Positions 16,224 to 22,291 of a DNA stretch of 64,000 nt are shown piece by piece. A model generated the notes under the pieces. The model was not told the DNA's origin, ran no database searches, and saw nothing but the letters and a program-made list of their open reading frames with translations. Position 1 is the first letter of the stretch. Every line of letters begins with the position of its first letter. Source of the DNA: Shigella phage Ag3; sequence record FJ373894. The stretch is one strand, 5' to 3'. The position numbers were made by a program, and so were the translations under genes.

Positions 16224-16550
16224 TTATTTGCGCAGGGCAACCACGAGTTCAGCGAGTTCACCCATGGTCGGGTCGTCGCCTTTACTGCCCAGCCAGCCGT
16301 CGTCGATTTCGACCTGAAACTCTTCTTCGAGGTCCATTACGATTTCGATGGCATCCAGTTCATCACCGCCGAGGTCTTTCTTGGTGCGGAGACCAGCCAG
16401 CTTGTCCAGGGCATCGTTGATTACCACTTCGGCATCGACGATCCCTTTGATGCTACTCTTGTCCTCATCACTGACTTCCAGATTCAGATTGTCAGTGGCG
16501 TACTGAGCCAGATGACGCATGACTTCAACATATGTTGGTTTACTGCTCAT
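16224..16550 (-). CDS. acyl-carrier-protein-like protein with Glu at the phosphopantetheine-Ser position
   Basis: LGGDELDAIEIVMDLEEEF aligns to ACP LGADSLDTVELVMALEEEF, with DSL replaced by DEL; GGAGA RBS. Confidence 0.55.
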   Translation of the reverse strand: MSSKPTYVEVMRHLAQYATDNLNLEVSDEDKSSIKGIVDAEVVINDALDKLAGLRTKKDLGGDELDAIEIVMDLEEEFQVEIDDGWLGSKGDDPTMGELAELVVALRK

Positions 16551-16592: not shown

Positions 16593-18794
16593 TTAAATTT
16601 TGATCTCTTTCTCTGCCAGTTCGGCAGTGACCTTGTACTTCACACCATCCACTTCAACTTCCATGGTGGACTCTTCCAGGTCGAGGTCGGTGAACCAGCC
16701 GTGGCCAGCAACGATACCATACACCACTTTAGACAGCGTCTTGTTCAGGGCGCGGACTTCGGTGATGGCCGCCTTGGCAGCAGCGTCGATCCAGTTTTCG
16801 ATCAGCTGTTTCTGTACGGCTTCAGGCACGGCAGTGATCGCAGGAGACTTCACGAATGCCTCGTACTCTTTCAGGGCATTGGCGATGAACAAGTCACCCG
16901 CATTGAGTTTCTTGTTCTCGGCAATCTTTTTCTGTACTGCCGCGATGCTAGGCAGAGAAGACGCCCCAGCGATCTTAACGTTCAGCTCACGGCTCATGTA
17001 GACATCCGTGGAGTCCTTCAGTTCGGTCTTCGGTGAGAAGCCGTAATCGCGGATGCCGTAGGAGGACAGGAACTCGGCCGCCTCAGCGCCGTACTGTACT
17101 GCCAGGCCTTTGGCGTTGCCTTTGCCAACCAGTTCATCACGGAAGAACTTCAGCACCTTCTGCTTGCCTTTCAGGGCTTCCAGACGGACGTTGTCAGCAA
17201 AGAACTGAGCAGCACTGATGTTCTTGACCATGGCGCGGTTGACCAGCGGTACGCTTTCCAGGTTCAGGACAAACACTTCCGGACCACCAAACACATGGAC
17301 GCCCATCTGACACAGATTGGTTACAACTTCAACATCAGCCCTGAACGGCAGAGTCTTCACGTTGATGATGCCGTCTTTGACGATGGTGTAGTTGCGCCAC
17401 TGGAAAGTATCCAGTTCTTCAGGCAGACCGAACTTCTTCTGCACGAACTCCGGAATCGCCACAGTGCCGTGTTGGACAGTGCGTACACTGATATTAGGGC
17501 GTTCGGAGTTATAGACCAAATCGCTGATTGGCACAACACCCAGATCGTTGGTAGGTTCGAACGTCGGGTTCCACTCTTCGTGCTCGGCCAGCTTGAGAGC
17601 CAGGGCTTTGCGCTCTTCTTTGGACTCGGCGTTCGCGATCTGTTCTGCCAGCTTGTCTTCGGTATCGTCCAGTTTCTGAGCCGTACCGCGACCGATGCTC
17701 TTGTAGGAGAACATAGGATGTTTGGTAGCAACACACACGCCAGCTTCAGCCAGATACGTCAGCACGTCAACGACGGTCGTCGCATCTTCAGCTGGAACCA
17801 GGTCATAGTCAATACCGTCAACGCCGCGCAGCTGGTCATCAACGATGGCCTGGGTCAGATCAACTTTGATGTTGGAGTAGTCCTGCTTGGTGAAGCAGTT
17901 GCTGTACTGTTTGATGAAGCGAACGTCACCAGTTTTCTTCAGTGCAGCCCACACCAGGTCTGCGTCCATGATGTGTACGCCGTAGAACGCCAGCACGTAT
18001 GCCGCCTGGATGTCCGCCAGTGCATCAAGCTGGTCGATCATGTTAGGATTGACGACCCACAGCTTCGTGACGCTCTCAGGGATGCTCACGTGGCCGATAG
18101 GATGGTCTTCATCCGGCTGTACCGCCAGCACAGTTGCTACGCCGTTTTCAACGTAGATGGCATGATCATACAGCAACGGAACATCAACAACCACTTTCGG
18201 CACCGAGGACTTCAGTACGTTTTCCAGCTCGGTCTGATATTCGGTCTGGCCTTCGGCGAACACGTGAGTCGCGCCGGAACGTTCAGACATCAGAGCCAGC
18301 AGTTCGCGGTTGCAGTACCAGCCGTATTCGATGAATGTGACGTTGTCGAAAGCGGAAGGAAGTTTTTCGGCGGTCTCCAGGATCTCATTGGAGCGCCAGC
18401 AGTTGTCATAACCATCGGTCATGAACGCCAGGTTGTTGACATAGCCAGGCTTCTTCAGACTACGAGCGGTGTCTACAGCCAGACCCAGAGGTTCCACGAA
18501 TCCAGTGCATCCGGACGGTTGTAGGAAGCGGTCGATCAGTTTGTTCAGCTCGCTCAGGTCAGATGCTGCACTAACCTGACGGCCAGCGAACACAGTACCA
18601 AAGTCGCCACGGGATGAGAAATACAGAACACTCACAGTGTCTTCCGGCTTCACCAGAGAAGGCAGGTTCTCCTTCAGATGCTTACGGACTTCAGGGAGCG
18701 CACGGTACATCGAATAAGAGATGTCCACAACGATTACATGGTTGGACGGGGCAGCAGTCGCAACCGCATTCTTAAATTCTAATGATTCAATCAT
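16593..18794 (-). CDS. von Willebrand factor A (VWA) domain protein
   Basis: VIVVDISYSM and FMTDGYDN motifs at N-terminus typical of VWA domains; start moved to ATG at 18794. Confidence 0.6.
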   Translation of the reverse strand: MIESLEFKNAVATAAPSNHVIVVDISYSMYRALPEVRKHLKENLPSLVKPEDTVSVLYFSSRGDFGTVFAGRQVSAASDLSELNKLIDRFLQPSGCTGFVEPLGLAVDTARSLKKPGYVNNLAFMTDGYDNCWRSNEILETAEKLPSAFDNVTFIEYGWYCNRELLALMSERSGATHVFAEGQTEYQTELENVLKSSVPKVVVDVPLLYDHAIYVENGVATVLAVQPDEDHPIGHVSIPESVTKLWVVNPNMIDQLDALADIQAAYVLAFYGVHIMDADLVWAALKKTGDVRFIKQYSNCFTKQDYSNIKVDLTQAIVDDQLRGVDGIDYDLVPAEDATTVVDVLTYLAEAGVCVATKHPMFSYKSIGRGTAQKLDDTEDKLAEQIANAESKEERKALALKLAEHEEWNPTFEPTNDLGVVPISDLVYNSERPNISVRTVQHGTVAIPEFVQKKFGLPEELDTFQWRNYTIVKDGIINVKTLPFRADVEVVTNLCQMGVHVFGGPEVFVLNLESVPLVNRAMVKNISAAQFFADNVRLEALKGKQKVLKFFRDELVGKGNAKGLAVQYGAEAAEFLSSYGIRDYGFSPKTELKDSTDVYMSRELNVKIAGASSLPSIAAVQKKIAENKKLNAGDLFIANALKEYEAFVKSPAITAVPEAVQKQLIENWIDAAAKAAITEVRALNKTLSKVVYGIVAGHGWFTDLDLEESTMEVEVDGVKYKVTAELAEKEIKI

Positions 18795-18957
18795 CGTTAT
18801 TGCCTTCTTCAGGGTTGTCTTCGGCCTCACCTTCCGGCTTGACCAGCATGTGTTCCAGGAAATCGCGATTGAGTTCAATCTGACTCATCAGCGTTTCCGA
18901 TGGGCTAAAGCGGCGGTCGAGGTTGTCGACGCCCGCACGTTCAAATGGTTTGGCCAT
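18787..18957 (-). CDS. hypothetical small acidic protein
   Basis: Internal start of ORF 18787..19014; position only. Confidence 0.3.
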   Translation of the reverse strand: MAKPFERAGVDNLDRRFSPSETLMSQIELNRDFLEHMLVKPEGEAEDNPEEGNNDD

Positions 18958-18958
18958 A

Positions 18959-19318
18959 TCAGCCGCCCTTGACTTCAGTAACGCCAGGGATCGACCGCAG
19001 GGCTTGGCGAACATCGGCGACCTTGTCCTTCTCCACAGTCACCACAATGAACGAGAAGTTCCTTTGTTTACGCCATTTCTTGAAGTGTGAGACAAGCTGT
19101 ACTTCGTTTTCTTCTGCGCCGCTTCCCCCTTCTACAGGGACGTAAACGACACCAGATTCAATAACTACATCGGCGTCATCGGGGATATCTGCGTCTACAT
19201 CTTCGCGATATTCACCATTGACTTTGATGCAATGATCGTCGTGCCAAGCGCCGTTCACCCAATATTCATCATCGTGGTAGTACGCATTGAATTCCGCGCC
19301 TTTCATCTTCACAGACAT
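18959..19318 (-). CDS. hypothetical protein with RAM/ACT-like C-terminus
   Basis: FSFIVVTVEKDKVADVRQALRSIPGVTEV resembles Lrp/AsnC RAM-domain pattern. Confidence 0.4.
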   Translation of the reverse strand: MSVKMKGAEFNAYYHDDEYWVNGAWHDDHCIKVNGEYREDVDADIPDDADVVIESGVVYVPVEGGSGAEENEVQLVSHFKKWRKQRNFSFIVVTVEKDKVADVRQALRSIPGVTEVKGG

Positions 19319-19360
19319 CAGGTTTCCCTCAAAACAGGGGAGTTGCCTCCCCTTCGGTTA

Positions 19361-21004
19361 TCAGATTTGTGAGGCCAGTTCCGCCACCAGAGGAGCGGCG
19401 CGGACACGCGCATCTTCCAGAGTTTGAGTGTTGAAGAACTTGCCGTCACGATACACCAGCTGGTGCTGGTTGTCGGCGTCTTGTACCTGATCAAAGGTGA
19501 TACCGTCAACCAACACTAGTTTACCCTGAGAGTCTTTAATGACTTTAAGGAAACCACGCGCAGACTTTTTAGTCCCGCCTTTATCGGTCTTCGGCTCTTT
19601 GAAGATCTCACGGAATTCACCGTTCACCTTACCAGCCGTTGCTTTCACCGCCGTGCCAGTACTGTCACGGGTGTTCATCTGGTAGGTGTAGGAACCGATA
19701 CCGAACACCACGTTGATGGAAGCGAAGTTCCGGCCAGCCAGACGGCTAAAGATCTGGTCTTCACGCGCCAGGGTGATGGAGTCGCCGTAAATCAGACCGA
19801 TGTGTTCGTCCAACAGGAAGTGGCCAGTTTCGGTCTGGGTCCCGCCAAAGATCTCCCACAGGCGCTGGATAGAGCCGACTGCTTCAGAACGGCTGATGAT
19901 ATTACGGTCGTCTGCCATCAGAGAGTTGATCGTGCCTTCGCCTGTAATCAGGTGATAGGTGTTCGTCTCTTCGATGTGAATGACTTCGGTGCTGCTAGAC
20001 ACGCCGCTGATGTTCAGCGTGGCGCGGTCTTTGAACCCCTCAATTCGGTAGCCGCCGACGATATGAACTGGGTCGCCCGAGTCAGGGCGGATCACGACTT
20101 TACCGTTACGCGCCATGATAATATCTTTCAGGCGCGGCAGATAGTCGTCGATGACCTGCCAGTAATCCCACGCATCAGACACGATGCTGACGATGCCATC
20201 AGGATACACGTCCTGCACCAGGCGGCGGAAGGTTTCGAATTCGCCATCCTTCGTACCCATACACATCACGGCGTGTTCGGTAGCCGCAACAGAACCAGCA
20301 ACGACATAGTCTTCGTCGATGTCTGCGCCATAATACTCTTCAACGAACGTGCGCCCACCGTCGCAGATATCATCGACCACCACCAGATAACGGTCTTTGA
20401 TCAGTTCAGGGTTTGTAATGCTCACCCCAATGATCTCACCAGTCTTGGTGTCACGGTTCTTGTGTCCGTAGACAACAGGAACGCCATCCAATGACAGGCT
20501 GAGGGCTTCGGTCTTCTTCGCCGCGCCGCCGTCAGGAGCTACCAGCACAGCGTTGTTCCCACGGATGAACCAGCCCAGATACTGCCGCACGATGTAATCT
20601 TGCGGGACAACATGGACGTTGTTGATCAGAGAAGTCACAACATGGCTGTGAGGGTCTTTGATCGCCACACGGTCAAAGTTCATGCTATTGATGAACTCAG
20701 CCGCCCACTTCACGGACAGAGGCTCTCCGAAGTCGCAATGGCGGTCCTGGCGAGCATACGGGAAGTAAGGGATATACGCATGGAAGGTCGTCAGACGGTC
20801 CACGTTACCCAGGCCGCGCACGGCGTTAACCAGCAGTGCCAGCTCAACGAAGTCGGCTGATGATTTGATGTGGGCATCAATCACCACGTTCTGGACGTGG
20901 CCGACAGGGATACCAGCCTTTTGGATCTTGATATGTTCCTCACCACCTGGGAAGGTGAAGTGTTTGTAGAACACATCTTGGTCGTTCAATTTCAAACGAA
21001 ACAT
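19361..21004 (-). CDS. fusion protein: ribose-phosphate pyrophosphokinase (Prs)-like N-domain plus nicotinamide phosphoribosyltransferase (NAMPT)-like C-domain
   Basis: N-terminus has IPYFPYARQDR and VVVDDICDGGRT (Prs motifs); C-terminus has VSDAWDYW, VIRPDSGDP, GLIYGDS and a long stretch alignable to NAMPT; single uninterrupted ORF; GAGG RBS. Confidence 0.75.
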   Translation of the reverse strand: MFRLKLNDQDVFYKHFTFPGGEEHIKIQKAGIPVGHVQNVVIDAHIKSSADFVELALLVNAVRGLGNVDRLTTFHAYIPYFPYARQDRHCDFGEPLSVKWAAEFINSMNFDRVAIKDPHSHVVTSLINNVHVVPQDYIVRQYLGWFIRGNNAVLVAPDGGAAKKTEALSLSLDGVPVVYGHKNRDTKTGEIIGVSITNPELIKDRYLVVVDDICDGGRTFVEEYYGADIDEDYVVAGSVAATEHAVMCMGTKDGEFETFRRLVQDVYPDGIVSIVSDAWDYWQVIDDYLPRLKDIIMARNGKVVIRPDSGDPVHIVGGYRIEGFKDRATLNISGVSSSTEVIHIEETNTYHLITGEGTINSLMADDRNIISRSEAVGSIQRLWEIFGGTQTETGHFLLDEHIGLIYGDSITLAREDQIFSRLAGRNFASINVVFGIGSYTYQMNTRDSTGTAVKATAGKVNGEFREIFKEPKTDKGGTKKSARGFLKVIKDSQGKLVLVDGITFDQVQDADNQHQLVYRDGKFFNTQTLEDARVRAAPLVAELASQI

Positions 21005-21114
21005 AATGTAGCCTCATGGTGTATTGTACAGCCGTATTATACTGTGATGCACAAATTGAAACACCCAGCAAATATACTGGGCGTCATTGATATTGAAGGA
21101 GTTTGATAATTCAG

Positions 21115-21909
21115 TTATTTGTAGGAATCGACGATGGCCTTGAACAGCGCGTCCTTCTGGTCGGTTGGGATATAATCCGCCGGAGCCAGCAAGAGCCGCC
21201 TGATGTCTTCACAGCAGCCTTTCTGTTCTTCGGCGCTCATCTTATCCCAAGTGGTGGCATTAAAGTAGATCCCACCCTTGTAAGCCGCCGTGCAAGTCTT
21301 GGCCAGGCGAACAACGAGTTCAGAATACAGTTCATCAGGCCGCATGTGTGAACGCAAATATGTTTCCACTCTGGCCTGGACTTTGCTGTTGTGTTGGTCA
21401 TTGTGAAGTTCGTTGTCGGTATGAATAAATTCAGCACCGAATCCGCGACTTGGGTCTCGTGGATGATGGAACACGAAAGACTGGCTATGACCTTTCAAGA
21501 ATTCCATCCCAGCCATATGATTTATCTTCCCCCTTTCGGAGATGTACTGCAAGATATCTATCTTCGCATCGGCGGTGGCCGCCTCCAACATCTGCTTCTC
21601 CACAACGGCGCGGTAGGCTTCCAGTTCCCACAACTGGGAGAAGGTCTTGTCATAGGCCAGCTTCTTACCCAACTCTTCATCAAAGTTGGCAGGGTCGATG
21701 GAAGTAGAGCTATTCTTGCCCCAGACGACGAAGCCGTTGTCCATCTTGAAGTGGCAGGTGATGACACGATGACCGCCGACTTCACGGTCTTCATAGATGA
21801 CTTCGGCAATGTGGGACTTCAGGAGGTCTGGAGACAGCTTCAGACCTTCGCGAACAGATTTACCCTTCAGCTCAACACCTTTGGGTTCATTACGATTGAT
21901 GGTTGCCAT
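21115..21909 (-). CDS. hypothetical protein
   Basis: ORF 21115..21942; start at internal ATG 21909. Confidence 0.5.
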   Translation of the reverse strand: MATINRNEPKGVELKGKSVREGLKLSPDLLKSHIAEVIYEDREVGGHRVITCHFKMDNGFVVWGKNSSTSIDPANFDEELGKKLAYDKTFSQLWELEAYRAVVEKQMLEAATADAKIDILQYISERGKINHMAGMEFLKGHSQSFVFHHPRDPSRGFGAEFIHTDNELHNDQHNSKVQARVETYLRSHMRPDELYSELVVRLAKTCTAAYKGGIYFNATTWDKMSAEEQKGCCEDIRRLLLAPADYIPTDQKDALFKAIVDSYK

Positions 21910-22291
21910 TCTGTGTTTCCCGTAATTGGTTGCATACAACAACTACTTTACGGCACATGTCGATATCGAACAAGCCAATATGACACTCACGCTTCTTTAT
22001 CCCCAGCTTATGCGCCAGCCAACTGTAAGCGTCGCTTCTGCTCCTCTCTCCGCTTTTCCACAATGGGTCAAACGATCTATGGGCTTTTCGCTTCTCGGCA
22101 CGGAGAGCGGCATTCGCCATCCTTCCCAGAGGTTGTCTGCCGTCTCCATGGGCATGGCAACCGACACGAGCGTCACATGGAGTGCATACCCAGAACTTCA
22201 GATTGCGGAGGTCAGGGCGATGAGGGTGGAGGACGTCACCACCGACGAATTCGGCTGGGAGGCCACAGTAATCACAGATGACAGGTTTCAT
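21890..22291 (-). CDS. Cys-rich zinc-ribbon protein (DUF3268-like, tentative)
   Basis: CDYCG...CTPCDARVGCHAH pattern; start moved to 22291. Confidence 0.45.
   Translation of the reverse strand: MKPVICDYCGLPAEFVGGDVLHPHRPDLRNLKFWVCTPCDARVGCHAHGDGRQPLGRMANAALRAEKRKAHRSFDPLWKSGERSRSDAYSWLAHKLGIKKRECHIGLFDIDMCRKVVVVCNQLRETQNGNHQS

What the first reader, a model, noticed from the sequence alone, without database searches (positions are those of the whole stretch)
19361..21004. Single ORF fusing a Prs-like domain to a NAMPT-like catalytic domain: candidate one-polypeptide NAD+ reconstitution enzyme
Residues 1-225 carry Prs hallmarks (PYFPYARQDR; PRPP loop VVVDDICDGGRT). Residues about 235-547 align closely to the C-terminal catalytic half of NAMPT (VSDAWDYW, VIRPDSGDP, GLIYGDS, long C-terminal stretch). 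Neither the Prs C-terminal segment nor the NAMPT N-terminal domain is present, and no other minus-strand ORF of 60 codons or more overlaps the locus, so this reads as a real chimera rather than two adjacent genes. Phage NAD+ salvage enzymes counter NAD+-depleting defences, and a two-protein route (Prs-like kinase plus NAMPT-like transferase) has been reported; a truncated fusion would be a new architecture. Flanking VWA and ACP-like genes may belong to the same module.
Basis: partly seen in the sequence, partly recalled or inferred. Interest (0 to 1): 0.8.

Follow-up and report, generated by a model that had tools for sequence, protein, structure and literature searches.

The report
Deletion-fused remnant of phage NARP1 genes
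The single "Prs–NAMPT fusion" gene is real in the sequence, but it is what remains after an 872-bp deletion joined two neighbouring phage NAD+-rebuilding genes (adps and namat) in Shigella phage Ag3, removing parts both enzymes need, so it is most likely a dead remnant and not a new enzyme design.

Summary
The ORF at 19361-21004 (-) exists and is chimeric: residues 1-222 are Prs-like and 220-547 are NAMPT-like. The window is Shigella phage Ag3 (Ackermannviridae, Agtrevirus), and the protein is YP_003358617.1. All 60 best-matching phage records, the closest at 96-98% DNA identity, have two separate overlapping genes here: a 284-aa Prs-like gene (Adps) and a 554-aa NAMPT-like gene (Namat). Together these form the known anti-defence pathway NARP1. 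Ag3 differs by one 872-bp deletion whose ends lie in an 8-bp direct repeat (TTCGTTGA, perfect in phage MK-13), which happens to restore the reading frame. The deletion removes the last 62 residues of Adps. It also removes the first ~226 residues of Namat, including the published nicotinamide-pocket residues (D13, Y15, F189, R192, D215) and the adenine clamp loop. The fused protein is a singleton among ~15 billion proteins, and its junction is absent from viral and metagenome contigs. It has no Ag3-private amino-acid change. The locus is dispensable in the genus (present in 8 of 14 genomes), and RPN242 carries an independent out-of-frame deletion. Verdict: a recent, probably inactive, deletion allele of a known system. 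Genuine full-length Adps-Namat fusions (785 aa) do exist, but in unrelated metagenomic phage contigs.

The parts
19361..21004 (-). Fused ORF of 547 codons plus stop (Shigella phage Ag3 YP_003358617.1, annotated 'putative nicotinamide phosphoribosyl transferase', orf149)
   Evidence: ORF list; exact-sequence look-up; Ag3 genome paper
20339..21004 (-). adps-derived part: codons 1-222 of the 284-codon Prs-like ADPR-pyrophosphate synthetase gene. It keeps the N-domain, the flexible-loop lysine (HKNRD, K182) and the ribose-phosphate loop (DDICDGGRT). It lacks the last 62 residues, including the THGIFS strand.
   Evidence: tblastn with ChubbyThor Adps: residues 1-222 at 99.6% identity; Pfam/NCBIfam/PHROG matches; motif positions
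20340..20347 (-). Deletion junction: the single remaining copy of the 8-nt direct repeat TTCGTTGA (codons F220-V221-E222). It is present once in adps and once in namat, 872 bp apart, in intact relatives (perfect in MK-13, 7 of 8 in ChubbyThor).
   Evidence: Breakpoint mapping. Only 36 of 200,000 random deletions in this gene pair have 8 nt or more of junction microhomology.
19361..20339 (-). namat-derived part: codons ~228-554 of the 554-codon NAMPT-like nicotinamide ADPR-transferase gene. It keeps the catalytic His (ATEH), IRPDSGD (R306/D308 equivalents), IYGDS and the clamp-helix motif GSYTYQMNTRD. It lacks DFYK (D13/Y15), the clamp loop, HDFSFRG (F189/S190/R192) and GTDT (D215).
   Evidence: tblastn with ChubbyThor Namat: residues 227-554 at 99.7% identity; alignment with FADO Namat; residue roles from PMC12774641; best solved-structure match is SpbetaL1 Namat 9W5X, E=1e-69
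21012..21015 (-). GAGG Shine-Dalgarno 7 nt upstream of the native adps ATG. The chimera keeps the parental translation start, so it should be expressed.
   Evidence: Sequence read
19877..20050 (-). Lineage-specific insertion of ~50-58 residues in the Namat barrel (fusion residues ~319-376). It is absent from SpbetaL1 and FADO Namat and from human NAMPT, but present in intact relatives, so it is unrelated to the deletion.
   Evidence: Unaligned gap between the two matched stretches; alignments

Best explanation
The ORF is a recent deletion allele of the known two-gene phage anti-defence operon NARP1 (adps-namat). In the ancestor of Shigella phage Ag3 the two genes lay head to tail with a 4-bp overlap, as in all sequenced close relatives. 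Slippage or illegitimate recombination between two copies of an 8-bp direct repeat removed the 872 bp between them. One copy (TTCGTTGA) lies just after the ribose-phosphate loop of adps, and the other lies at codons 227-229 of namat. Because the two genes are in different frames, an 872-bp loss happens to join them in frame, giving Adps(1-222)-Namat(~228-554) translated from the native adps start. The product lacks two strands and the C-terminal segment of the Adps C-domain. It also lacks the whole N-terminal ~226 residues of Namat. Those residues provide the nicotinamide-stacking pair (Tyr15' and Phe189), Asp13', Arg192, Asp215, the adenine clamp loop, the central strands of domain A and part of the dimer interface. 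It is therefore most likely unable to make NAD+ from ADP-ribose and nicotinamide, so Ag3 is effectively NARP1-negative. Shown: the deletion, its repeat-bounded junction, its uniqueness, and the loss of the named residues. Inferred: loss of activity, and that the deletion is biological and not an assembly error.
For: (1) All 60 best phage records match the ORF in two pieces spanning ~2.5 kb, and most annotate two genes there, a pyrophosphokinase and a nicotinamide phosphoribosyltransferase. The closest are ChubbyThor, SKML-39, MK-13 and P46FS4 at 96-98% DNA identity. (2) The junction lies exactly in the TTCGT[T/A]GA repeat, which is a perfect 8-mer in MK-13. Among all possible 872-bp deletions only this site has more than 4 nt of microhomology, and only 1.8e-4 of random deletions reach 8 nt. 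(3) The retained parts are 99.6-99.7% identical to ChubbyThor. Ag3 has 0 private non-synonymous and 2 private synonymous changes. (4) The protein is a singleton cluster seen on one 158,006-bp contig. It is the only member of its kind in two very large protein searches, and the junction sequence has no hit in viral or metagenome contigs. (5) The deleted Namat part contains residues shown by structure and mutagenesis to form the nicotinamide pocket and the selectivity clamp (PMC12774641). (6) The locus is accessory in Agtrevirus, present in 8 of 14 genomes, and RPN242 has an independent out-of-frame deletion joining adps codon ~50 to namat codon ~376. (7) Other metagenomic chimeras have scattered breakpoints and do not form a conserved family. 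(8) The AlphaFold2 model is poor (mean pLDDT 60, pTM 0.42), with pLDDT below 50 at the junction (211-252) and in Namat domain-A segments (434-486, 512-533). This is weak evidence because the alignment was shallow.
Against: No biochemical or phenotypic data exist for the Ag3 protein. The frame is intact and the native start and Shine-Dalgarno are kept, so a protein is probably made. The catalytic Lys and ribose-phosphate loop of Adps survive, as do the catalytic His, the R306/D308 equivalents and the clamp helix of Namat, so residual binding or partial activity cannot be excluded. Three independent chimeras (Ag3, P0012, P0020) break Adps within about 5 residues of each other just after the ribose-phosphate loop, and I cannot fully explain this. 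The genome was assembled from 454 reads at only 19x, and I could not inspect reads.
Confidence: 0.82

Rival explanations
1. Sequencing or assembly artefact: the real Ag3 genome has intact adps and namat genes, and the 872-bp gap arose in the 2009-era 454 assembly or reflects a minor sub-population of the stock.
For: The genome was determined by 454 pyrosequencing at only 19x coverage. No other record or contig carries the junction. The retained sequence is virtually identical to intact relatives.
Against: An 8-bp repeat is far too short to make an assembler collapse 872 bp when reads are hundreds of bases long. A clean repeat-bounded junction is the signature of a biological deletion. Deletions at this locus demonstrably occur in the genus.
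Confidence: 0.1
2. One reading: the chimera is a working single-polypeptide NAD+ reconstitution enzyme in which the Prs-like module replaces the NAMPT N-domain.
For: The ORF is in frame with its native start. Several catalytic motifs are retained on both sides. Full-length Adps-Namat fusions exist elsewhere, showing that covalent linkage of the two activities is tolerated.
Against: It lacks D13, Y15, F189, S190, R192, D215 and the clamp loop of Namat, plus the central strands of domain A. Namat is a head-to-tail dimer whose active site needs domain A of the partner, and the D215A mutation alone reduces activity ~8-fold. It lacks 62 C-terminal Adps residues. It is unique to one phage with no post-fusion substitutions. 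The natural fusions keep both proteins complete at 785 aa. The structure prediction is poor.
Confidence: 0.03
3. The chimera has lost NAD+ synthesis but keeps or gains another selectable role. Examples are an Adps fragment that still binds or pyrophosphorylates ADPR, a decoy, or a loss that is itself adaptive where a host defence exploits or senses NARP1.
For: The Adps catalytic Lys and ribose-phosphate loop are retained. adps-namat chimeras recur in unrelated metagenomic phages, one of them assembled identically in two samples. NARP1 is repeatedly lost in Agtrevirus.
Against: Breakpoints differ between chimeras and each is a singleton, as expected for sporadic neutral or deleterious deletions of which one in three is in frame. 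RPN242's deletion is out of frame. There is no sequence evidence of selection after the event.
Confidence: 0.05

Closest known systems
NARP1 (NAD+ reconstitution pathway 1: Adps + Namat; Osterman et al., bioRxiv 10.1101/2024.02.11.579819; Namat structures 9W5X/9W5W, PMC12774641)
   Same: The two halves of the ORF are the 5' part of an adps gene and the 3' part of a namat gene. The best solved-structure match is SpbetaL1 Namat (E=1e-69, against ~5e-16 for human NAMPT). The intact ChubbyThor Namat is 46% identical to the Namat of FADO, whose NARP1 was validated by deletion. The Namat clamp-helix motif GSX-Phi-X-Phi-X-Phi-TRD is present as GSYTYQMNTRD. In intact relatives the genes are adjacent and overlap, as in the described operon.
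   Different: In Ag3 the operon is broken. 872 bp are missing, one polypeptide replaces two, and the Namat nicotinamide pocket, clamp loop and domain-A core and the Adps C-terminus are gone. Position 7 of the clamp motif is Met and not aromatic. This lineage's Namat also carries an extra ~50-58-residue insertion.
Full-length natural Adps-Namat fusion proteins (P0010/P0014, 785 aa; metagenomic phage-like contigs L011/L012)
   Same: They have the same gene order (Adps then Namat) in a single ORF.
   Different: They contain the complete Adps (including the THGIFS strand and C-terminus), a linker and the complete Namat (NAMPT_N + NAPRTase). The Ag3 ORF aligns to them with one contiguous gap of ~315 columns.
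Class I ribose-phosphate diphosphokinase (Prs) and PRPP-dependent NAMPT/NadV (NARP2-type)
   Same: Both show fold-level and motif-level homology: Pribosyltran_N/Pribosyltran domains with the PRPP-type loop, and the NAPRTase-family barrel with the phospho-histidine motif.
   Different: It scores below the curated cut-offs of all Prs and NAMPT equivalog models (for example TIGR01251 87.7 against 113, and NF006629 267.8 against 405). The parental genes belong to the phage Adps/Namat lineage, which uses ADPR and ADPR-PP instead of ribose-5-P and PRPP.
Escherichia phage RPN242 gp114 (77-aa remnant at the same locus)
   Same: It is an independent deletion joining adps 5' sequence to internal namat sequence in another Agtrevirus-like phage.
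   Different: The deletion is larger (~1.8 kb plus 3' loss) and out of frame, so it leaves an obvious remnant. The Ag3 deletion is in frame and so looks like a fusion protein.

Membership tests
NARP1 operon (Adps + Namat) | Two separate, adjacent genes encoding a Prs-like Adps and a NAMPT-like Namat | tested here: not met
   Ag3 has one fused ORF. All 60 best phage records have two genes: 284 aa and 554 aa with a 4-bp overlap in the seven Agtrevirus relatives inspected.
NARP1 operon (Adps + Namat) | Sequence homology to experimentally characterised NARP1 proteins | tested here: met
   SpbetaL1 Namat 9W5X E=1e-69. The parental Namat is 46% identical to FADO Namat (E=8e-155) and the parental Adps is 27% identical to FADO Adps (E=2e-16).
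Namat | Nicotinamide pocket residues Asp13', Tyr15', Phe189, Arg192, Asp215 (SpbetaL1 numbering) | tested here: not met
   DFYK, HDFSFRG and GTDT lie at Namat residues 13, 192 and 218 of the intact relatives, all upstream of the junction at ~227.
Namat | Conserved catalytic core: phospho-histidine, Arg306, Asp308, Gly-Asp-Ala/Ser | tested here: met
   ATEH, IRPDSGD and IYGDS are retained in the fusion.
Namat | ADPR-PP selectivity clamp: helix motif GSX-Phi-X-Phi-X-Phi-TRD plus the beta1-beta2 loop (Arg40') | tested here: not met
   The helix motif is present as GSYTYQMNTRD, with Met at position 7. The beta1-beta2 loop is deleted with the N-terminus.
Adps | Complete two-domain Prs-like fold with the catalytic flexible-loop Lys (SpbetaL1 K162 = B. 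subtilis Prs K197) and the ribose-phosphate loop | tested here: inconclusive
   The Lys (HKNRD) and the loop (DDICDGGRT) are retained, but the last 62 residues, including the THGIFS strand, are deleted. Whether the truncated fold is stable cannot be decided by sequence, and the AF2 model has low confidence.
NARP1 operon (Adps + Namat) | ATP-dependent conversion of ADPR + nicotinamide to NAD+ and protection from NAD+-depleting defence | not testable with these tools
   This needs enzyme assays and plaque assays.
Class I Prs (ribose-phosphate diphosphokinase) | Score at or above the curated NCBIfam cut-off for the family | tested here: not met
   TIGR01251 scores 87.7 bits against a cut-off of 113, and all equivalog models score far below their cut-offs.
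NAMPT / NadV | NAMPT_N domain plus a full NAPRTase barrel, with a score at or above the curated cut-off | tested here: not met
   There is no PF18127 match. The NAPRTase match starts at profile position 43. NF006629 scores 267.8 against a cut-off of 405.

The most novel reading that the evidence does not exclude
The in-frame Adps(1-222)-Namat(228-554) chimera is expressed and retains or has gained a selectable activity. Examples are ADPR binding or pyrophosphorylation by the Adps fragment, or interference with a host NAD+-based defence. In that case the recurrence of adps-namat chimeras broken just after the Adps ribose-phosphate loop in unrelated phages (Ag3, P0012, P0020) would reflect selection and not chance.
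Probability: 0.04. Interest if true: 0.5.

Novelty: already known. Interest (0 to 1): 0.12.

Why it matters
As a discovery it matters little: the underlying system (NARP1) is published, and this copy is a broken allele in one phage. It has three practical uses. First, Ag3 orf149 and PHROG 12872, which it matches end to end, should not be read as a fusion-enzyme architecture. Second, Ag3 is predicted to be naturally NARP1-deficient beside near-isogenic NARP1-positive relatives (MK-13, ChubbyThor). That gives a ready-made natural comparison for testing NAD+-depleting defences in Shigella and E. coli. Third, anyone looking for one-polypeptide NARP1 enzymes should look at the complete 785-aa fusions found in passing, not at this ORF.

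Tried and rejected
(1) The first MAFFT alignment (A1) forced the Prs-like N-terminus of the query onto Namat N-domain columns because of a chance D..FYK..H..FP.G.E resemblance. I discarded it and built A2 from same-order fusions and C-terminal fragments. (2) The AlphaFold2 model from A2 had mean pLDDT 60 and pTM 0.42. That is too low for a meaningful fold search, so none was run, and the low confidence is only weak evidence because the alignment had 13 rows. (3) look-up of encoding contigs did not hold the Ag3 protein, and the Ag3 record is not in the phage collection. I therefore could not check the other ~94 kb of the genome for the deleted segment, but within the window it is absent. (4) I considered that P0012 and P0020 might define a conserved truncated-fusion family. 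I rejected this because the Namat-side breakpoints differ by ~95 residues, other chimeras break elsewhere (Adps ~124 and ~165; Namat ~204, ~244 and ~377; two in reverse order), each looks like a singleton, and no cultured phage shares them. (5) I considered inteins or homing elements as the cause of the large insertions in long Namat homologs, but found no Pfam match. (6) Literature searches for 'Namat' with 'fused' or 'fusion' returned only unrelated papers, and the two main NARP1 papers do not mention fusions. (7) The sigma-70 promoter scan found nothing in 18800-21400, which is uninformative for a phage with its own transcription programme.
Full report
OBSERVATION. Four independent profile libraries confirm a two-part composition.
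- Pfam: Pribosyltran_N (residues 18-107), Pribosyltran (147-219) and NAPRTase (236-489, E=1.4e-24).
- NCBIfam: Prs models over residues ~14-222 and the NAMPT-type model NF006629 over residues 219-536, all below their curated full-length cut-offs.
- PHROGs: phrog_619 (pyrophosphokinase) over residues 4-222 and phrog_448 (NAMPT) over residues 220-537. phrog_12872 (547 positions) matches end to end at 1290 bits, so this protein is already in phage databases.
- Solved structures: Prs chains match residues ~10-224 and NAMPT-like chains match ~217-536. The best are 9W5X/9W5W (E~1e-69), far ahead of human NAMPT (~5e-16).
One detail of the finding is inexact: a mechanical 63-codon minus-strand ORF (19318-19509) does overlap the 3' end.

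IDENTITY OF THE WINDOW AND THE PROTEIN. An exact-sequence look-up identifies the protein as ACO94364.1/YP_003358617.1 of Shigella phage Ag3. It is a cluster of one among ~15 billion proteins, seen on one 158,006-bp contig. [quoted passage not shown]

WHAT THE RELATIVES SHOW. Megablast of 19000-21400 finds 91 Ackermannviridae records. In the closest (ChubbyThor 97.6%, SKML-39 96.8%, MK-13 96.7% and others) the 2.4-kb query maps in two pieces onto ~3.27 kb. tblastn with the ORF gives the same result: all 60 best records match it in two pieces spanning ~2.5 kb, and most annotate two genes there. In ChubbyThor these are gp162 (ribose-phosphate pyrophosphokinase, 284 aa) and gp161 (554 aa), which overlap by 4 bp. 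Six further Agtrevirus genomes have the same layout. The Ag3 ORF equals gp162 residues 1-222 (one substitution) joined to gp161 residues ~227-554 (one substitution).

THE JUNCTION. Ag3 reads ...GGGCGCACGTTCGTTGA|AGAGTATTAT.... The intact adps reads ...ACGTTCGTTGAGTTAGGC... and the intact namat reads ...GACTTCGT(A/T)GAAGAGTATTAT.... In MK-13, which has the fewest nucleotide differences from Ag3 in the retained codons, both sites carry a perfect TTCGTTGA, 872 bp apart. Ag3 keeps a single copy at window 20340-20347. Among all possible 872-bp deletions in the MK-13 gene pair, only this site has more than 4 nt of junction microhomology. Only 36 of 200,000 random deletions of 300-2000 bp reach 8 nt. 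This is the classic signature of replication slippage or microhomology-mediated deletion. Because the two genes are in different frames (4-bp overlap), an 872-bp loss (3n+2) fuses them in frame. The repeat encodes Phe-Val-Glu in both parents, so the seam is invisible at protein level. The deleted DNA, the Adps C-terminus and the Namat N-terminus are not found elsewhere in the window.

WHAT THE PARENTAL GENES ARE. The pair corresponds to NARP1, the two-gene phage operon in which a Prs-like enzyme (Adps) pyrophosphorylates ADP-ribose. A NAMPT-like enzyme (Namat) then joins ADPR-PP to nicotinamide to rebuild NAD+, countering NAD+-depleting defences (bioRxiv 10.1101/2024.02.11.579819). 9W5X and 9W5W are the SpbetaL1 Namat crystal structures (PMC12774641). 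The intact ChubbyThor Namat is 46% identical (E=8e-155) to the Namat of Bacillus phage FADO, whose NARP1 was validated by deletion, and the Adps is 27% identical (E=2e-16). The Namat-specific clamp-helix motif GSX-Phi-X-Phi-X-Phi-TRD is present as GSYTYQMNTRD.

WHAT THE DELETION REMOVES. [quoted passage not shown]
- Nicotinamide is sandwiched between Phe189 and Tyr15' and contacts Asp13', Arg192 and Asp215.
- Ser190 contacts the NMN phosphate.
- Arg40' of the beta1-beta2 loop is half of the adenine clamp.
- D215A lowers activity ~8-fold, and R40A/F392G abolishes anti-defence activity in vivo.
In the Ackermannviridae Namat these residues are DFYK (13-16), HDFSFRG (192-198) and GTDT (218-221), all upstream of the junction at ~227 and therefore absent from Ag3. 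Strands beta1-beta5, which include three central strands of the domain-A sheet, lie in the deleted N-terminal part. Strand beta6, an edge of the domain-B core, is also probably lost. Both points are inferred from the published topology.

Retained elements are the catalytic His (ATEH), IRPDSGD, IYGDS and the clamp helix.

On the Adps side, the flexible-loop Lys (HKNRD; equivalent to the SpbetaL1 K162 chosen for mutagenesis) and the ribose-phosphate loop (DDICDGGRT) survive. The helix after the loop, the THGIFS strand and everything downstream (62 residues) are lost.

An AlphaFold2 model built from a clean 13-row alignment is poor (mean pLDDT 60, pTM 0.42). Confidence is below 50 at 211-252 (the seam) and at 434-486 and 512-533, the Namat segments that normally pack against the missing N-terminal strands. 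I treat this only as weak support because the alignment is shallow.

IS THE ARCHITECTURE FOUND ELSEWHERE? The exact junction has no match in IMG/VR viral contigs or JGI metagenome contigs. A word-indexed search of 5.8 billion proteins and an exhaustive HMMER search of 1.84 billion representatives returned no second member of the Ag3 type. I mapped all 266 retrieved proteins onto intact Adps and Namat, which showed two things.
(a) There are two complete fusions, P0010 and P0014 (785 aa). They contain full Adps, a linker and full Namat, and were found on a 134.6-kb JGI contig and an independent Logan contig.
(b) There is a handful of truncated chimeras with scattered breakpoints. The Adps side ends at ~124, 165, 165, 226 and 227. 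The Namat side starts at ~147, 204, 242, 244 and 377. Two are in reverse gene order.
P0012 is assembled identically in two samples, so such alleles are real, but they do not share boundaries and have no close cultured relatives. This fits sporadic deletion between two adjacent genes, one third of which will be in frame, and not a conserved domain architecture. One thing remains unexplained: Ag3, P0012 and P0020 all break Adps within ~5 residues after the ribose-phosphate loop.

EVOLUTIONARY CONTEXT. Using seven relatives to polarise changes, the Ag3 ORF has two private synonymous and no private non-synonymous substitutions. A third apparent private change is simply the Namat-side base of the junction. 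The event is therefore very recent, and nothing suggests adaptation of the chimera. A comparative study of Agtrevirus found the NAMPT and RPPK genes in only 8 of 14 genomes (PMC10791037). In Escherichia phage RPN242 the locus is reduced to a 77-aa ORF created by an independent out-of-frame deletion joining adps nucleotide ~151 to namat nucleotide ~1126. So the operon is accessory and is repeatedly eroded by deletion in this genus.

MECHANISM AND VERDICT. The best-supported account is a recent, repeat-mediated 872-bp deletion that converted a functional NARP1 operon into one in-frame but structurally crippled polypeptide. It is still translated from the native adps start (GAGG 7 nt upstream of the ATG). 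Ag3 is predicted to be NARP1-deficient. The main rival is an assembly or stock artefact (about 0.1), which only resequencing can exclude. A functional one-polypeptide enzyme is very unlikely (about 0.03).

FLANKING GENES. The VWA domain (16593-18878) and the ACP-like PP-binding domain (16224-16550) are confirmed at modest scores and are syntenic in Ackermannviridae. The unrelated NARP1 or fusion loci have different neighbours: TSCPD, nucleoside deoxyribosyltransferase, NT5C, Thy1, NUDIX, thymidylate kinase and thymidylate synthase. I found no evidence that the VWA and ACP-like genes belong to the NAD+ module.

NOVELTY. The system is known, and the ORF is a broken allele of it. The only mildly new items are by-products found outside the window: complete 785-aa Adps-Namat fusions, which the two NARP1 papers I could search do not mention.

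Noticed in passing
L011:6001-8358 and L012:6001-8358 (proteins P0014, P0010): These are complete natural Adps-Namat fusion proteins of 785 aa (full Adps + linker + full Namat with NAMPT_N). They sit on a 134.6-kb phage-like JGI contig and an independent Logan contig, next to NUDIX, thymidylate kinase, thymidylate synthase and terminase genes. They are the real candidates for a one-polypeptide NARP1, and the two NARP1 papers searched do not mention fusions.
   Followed up: partly
L009:732-2411, L010:711-2390 (P0012); L008:1586-3127 (P0020); proteins P0032, P0121, P0202, P0140, P0206: Sporadic truncated adps-namat chimeras occur in unrelated metagenomic phages with scattered breakpoints. Three of them (Ag3, P0012, P0020) end the Adps part within ~5 residues after the DDIxDGGxT loop, a clustering I could not explain.
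   Followed up: partly
L013:3501-3734 (Escherichia phage RPN242 gp114): This is a 77-aa remnant ORF made by an independent out-of-frame deletion joining adps nt ~151 to namat nt ~1126. It shows the NARP1 locus decaying by deletion elsewhere in the genus.
   Followed up: yes
window 19877-20050 (-), fusion residues ~319-376: The Ackermannviridae Namat carries a ~50-58-residue insertion after RPDSGDPVHIVGG that is absent from SpbetaL1 and FADO Namat and from human NAMPT. Other Namat homologs of 780-900 aa carry 300-400-residue insertions at this site (P0156, P0170, P0176, P0192, P0234, P0246) or just after the catalytic His (P0181, P0221). None has a Pfam match, so the intein or homing-element idea is untested.
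   Followed up: partly
window 16224-16550 (-) and 16593-18878 (-): An ACP-like (PP-binding, 25-27 bits) gene and a VWA-domain (26 bits) gene lie downstream. They are syntenic in Ackermannviridae but not next to NARP1 in unrelated phage contigs, and their function is unknown. The mechanical ORF for the VWA gene (761 aa from a TTG) is longer than the 733-aa gene annotated in ChubbyThor.
   Followed up: partly
window 20951-20992 (-), fusion residues 5-18: The Adps N-terminus (KLNDQDVFYKHFTFPGGEEH) resembles by chance the Namat N-terminus (IDFYKSGHIYQFPEGSE). That was enough to make MAFFT misalign the Prs-like half onto the Namat N-domain, which is a trap for automated domain calls.
   Followed up: no
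window 19318-19509 (-): A 63-codon TTG-start ORF in another frame overlaps the 3' end of the fused ORF, contrary to the finding's statement. It is most likely meaningless.
   Followed up: no
window 21115-21942 (-): The upstream neighbour (275 aa) carries a Phage_gp49_66 domain (N4 gp49 / Sf6 gene 66 family, E=6e-12). In Gloob and AV101 this neighbour is replaced or shortened, so the region upstream of adps is also variable.
   Followed up: no
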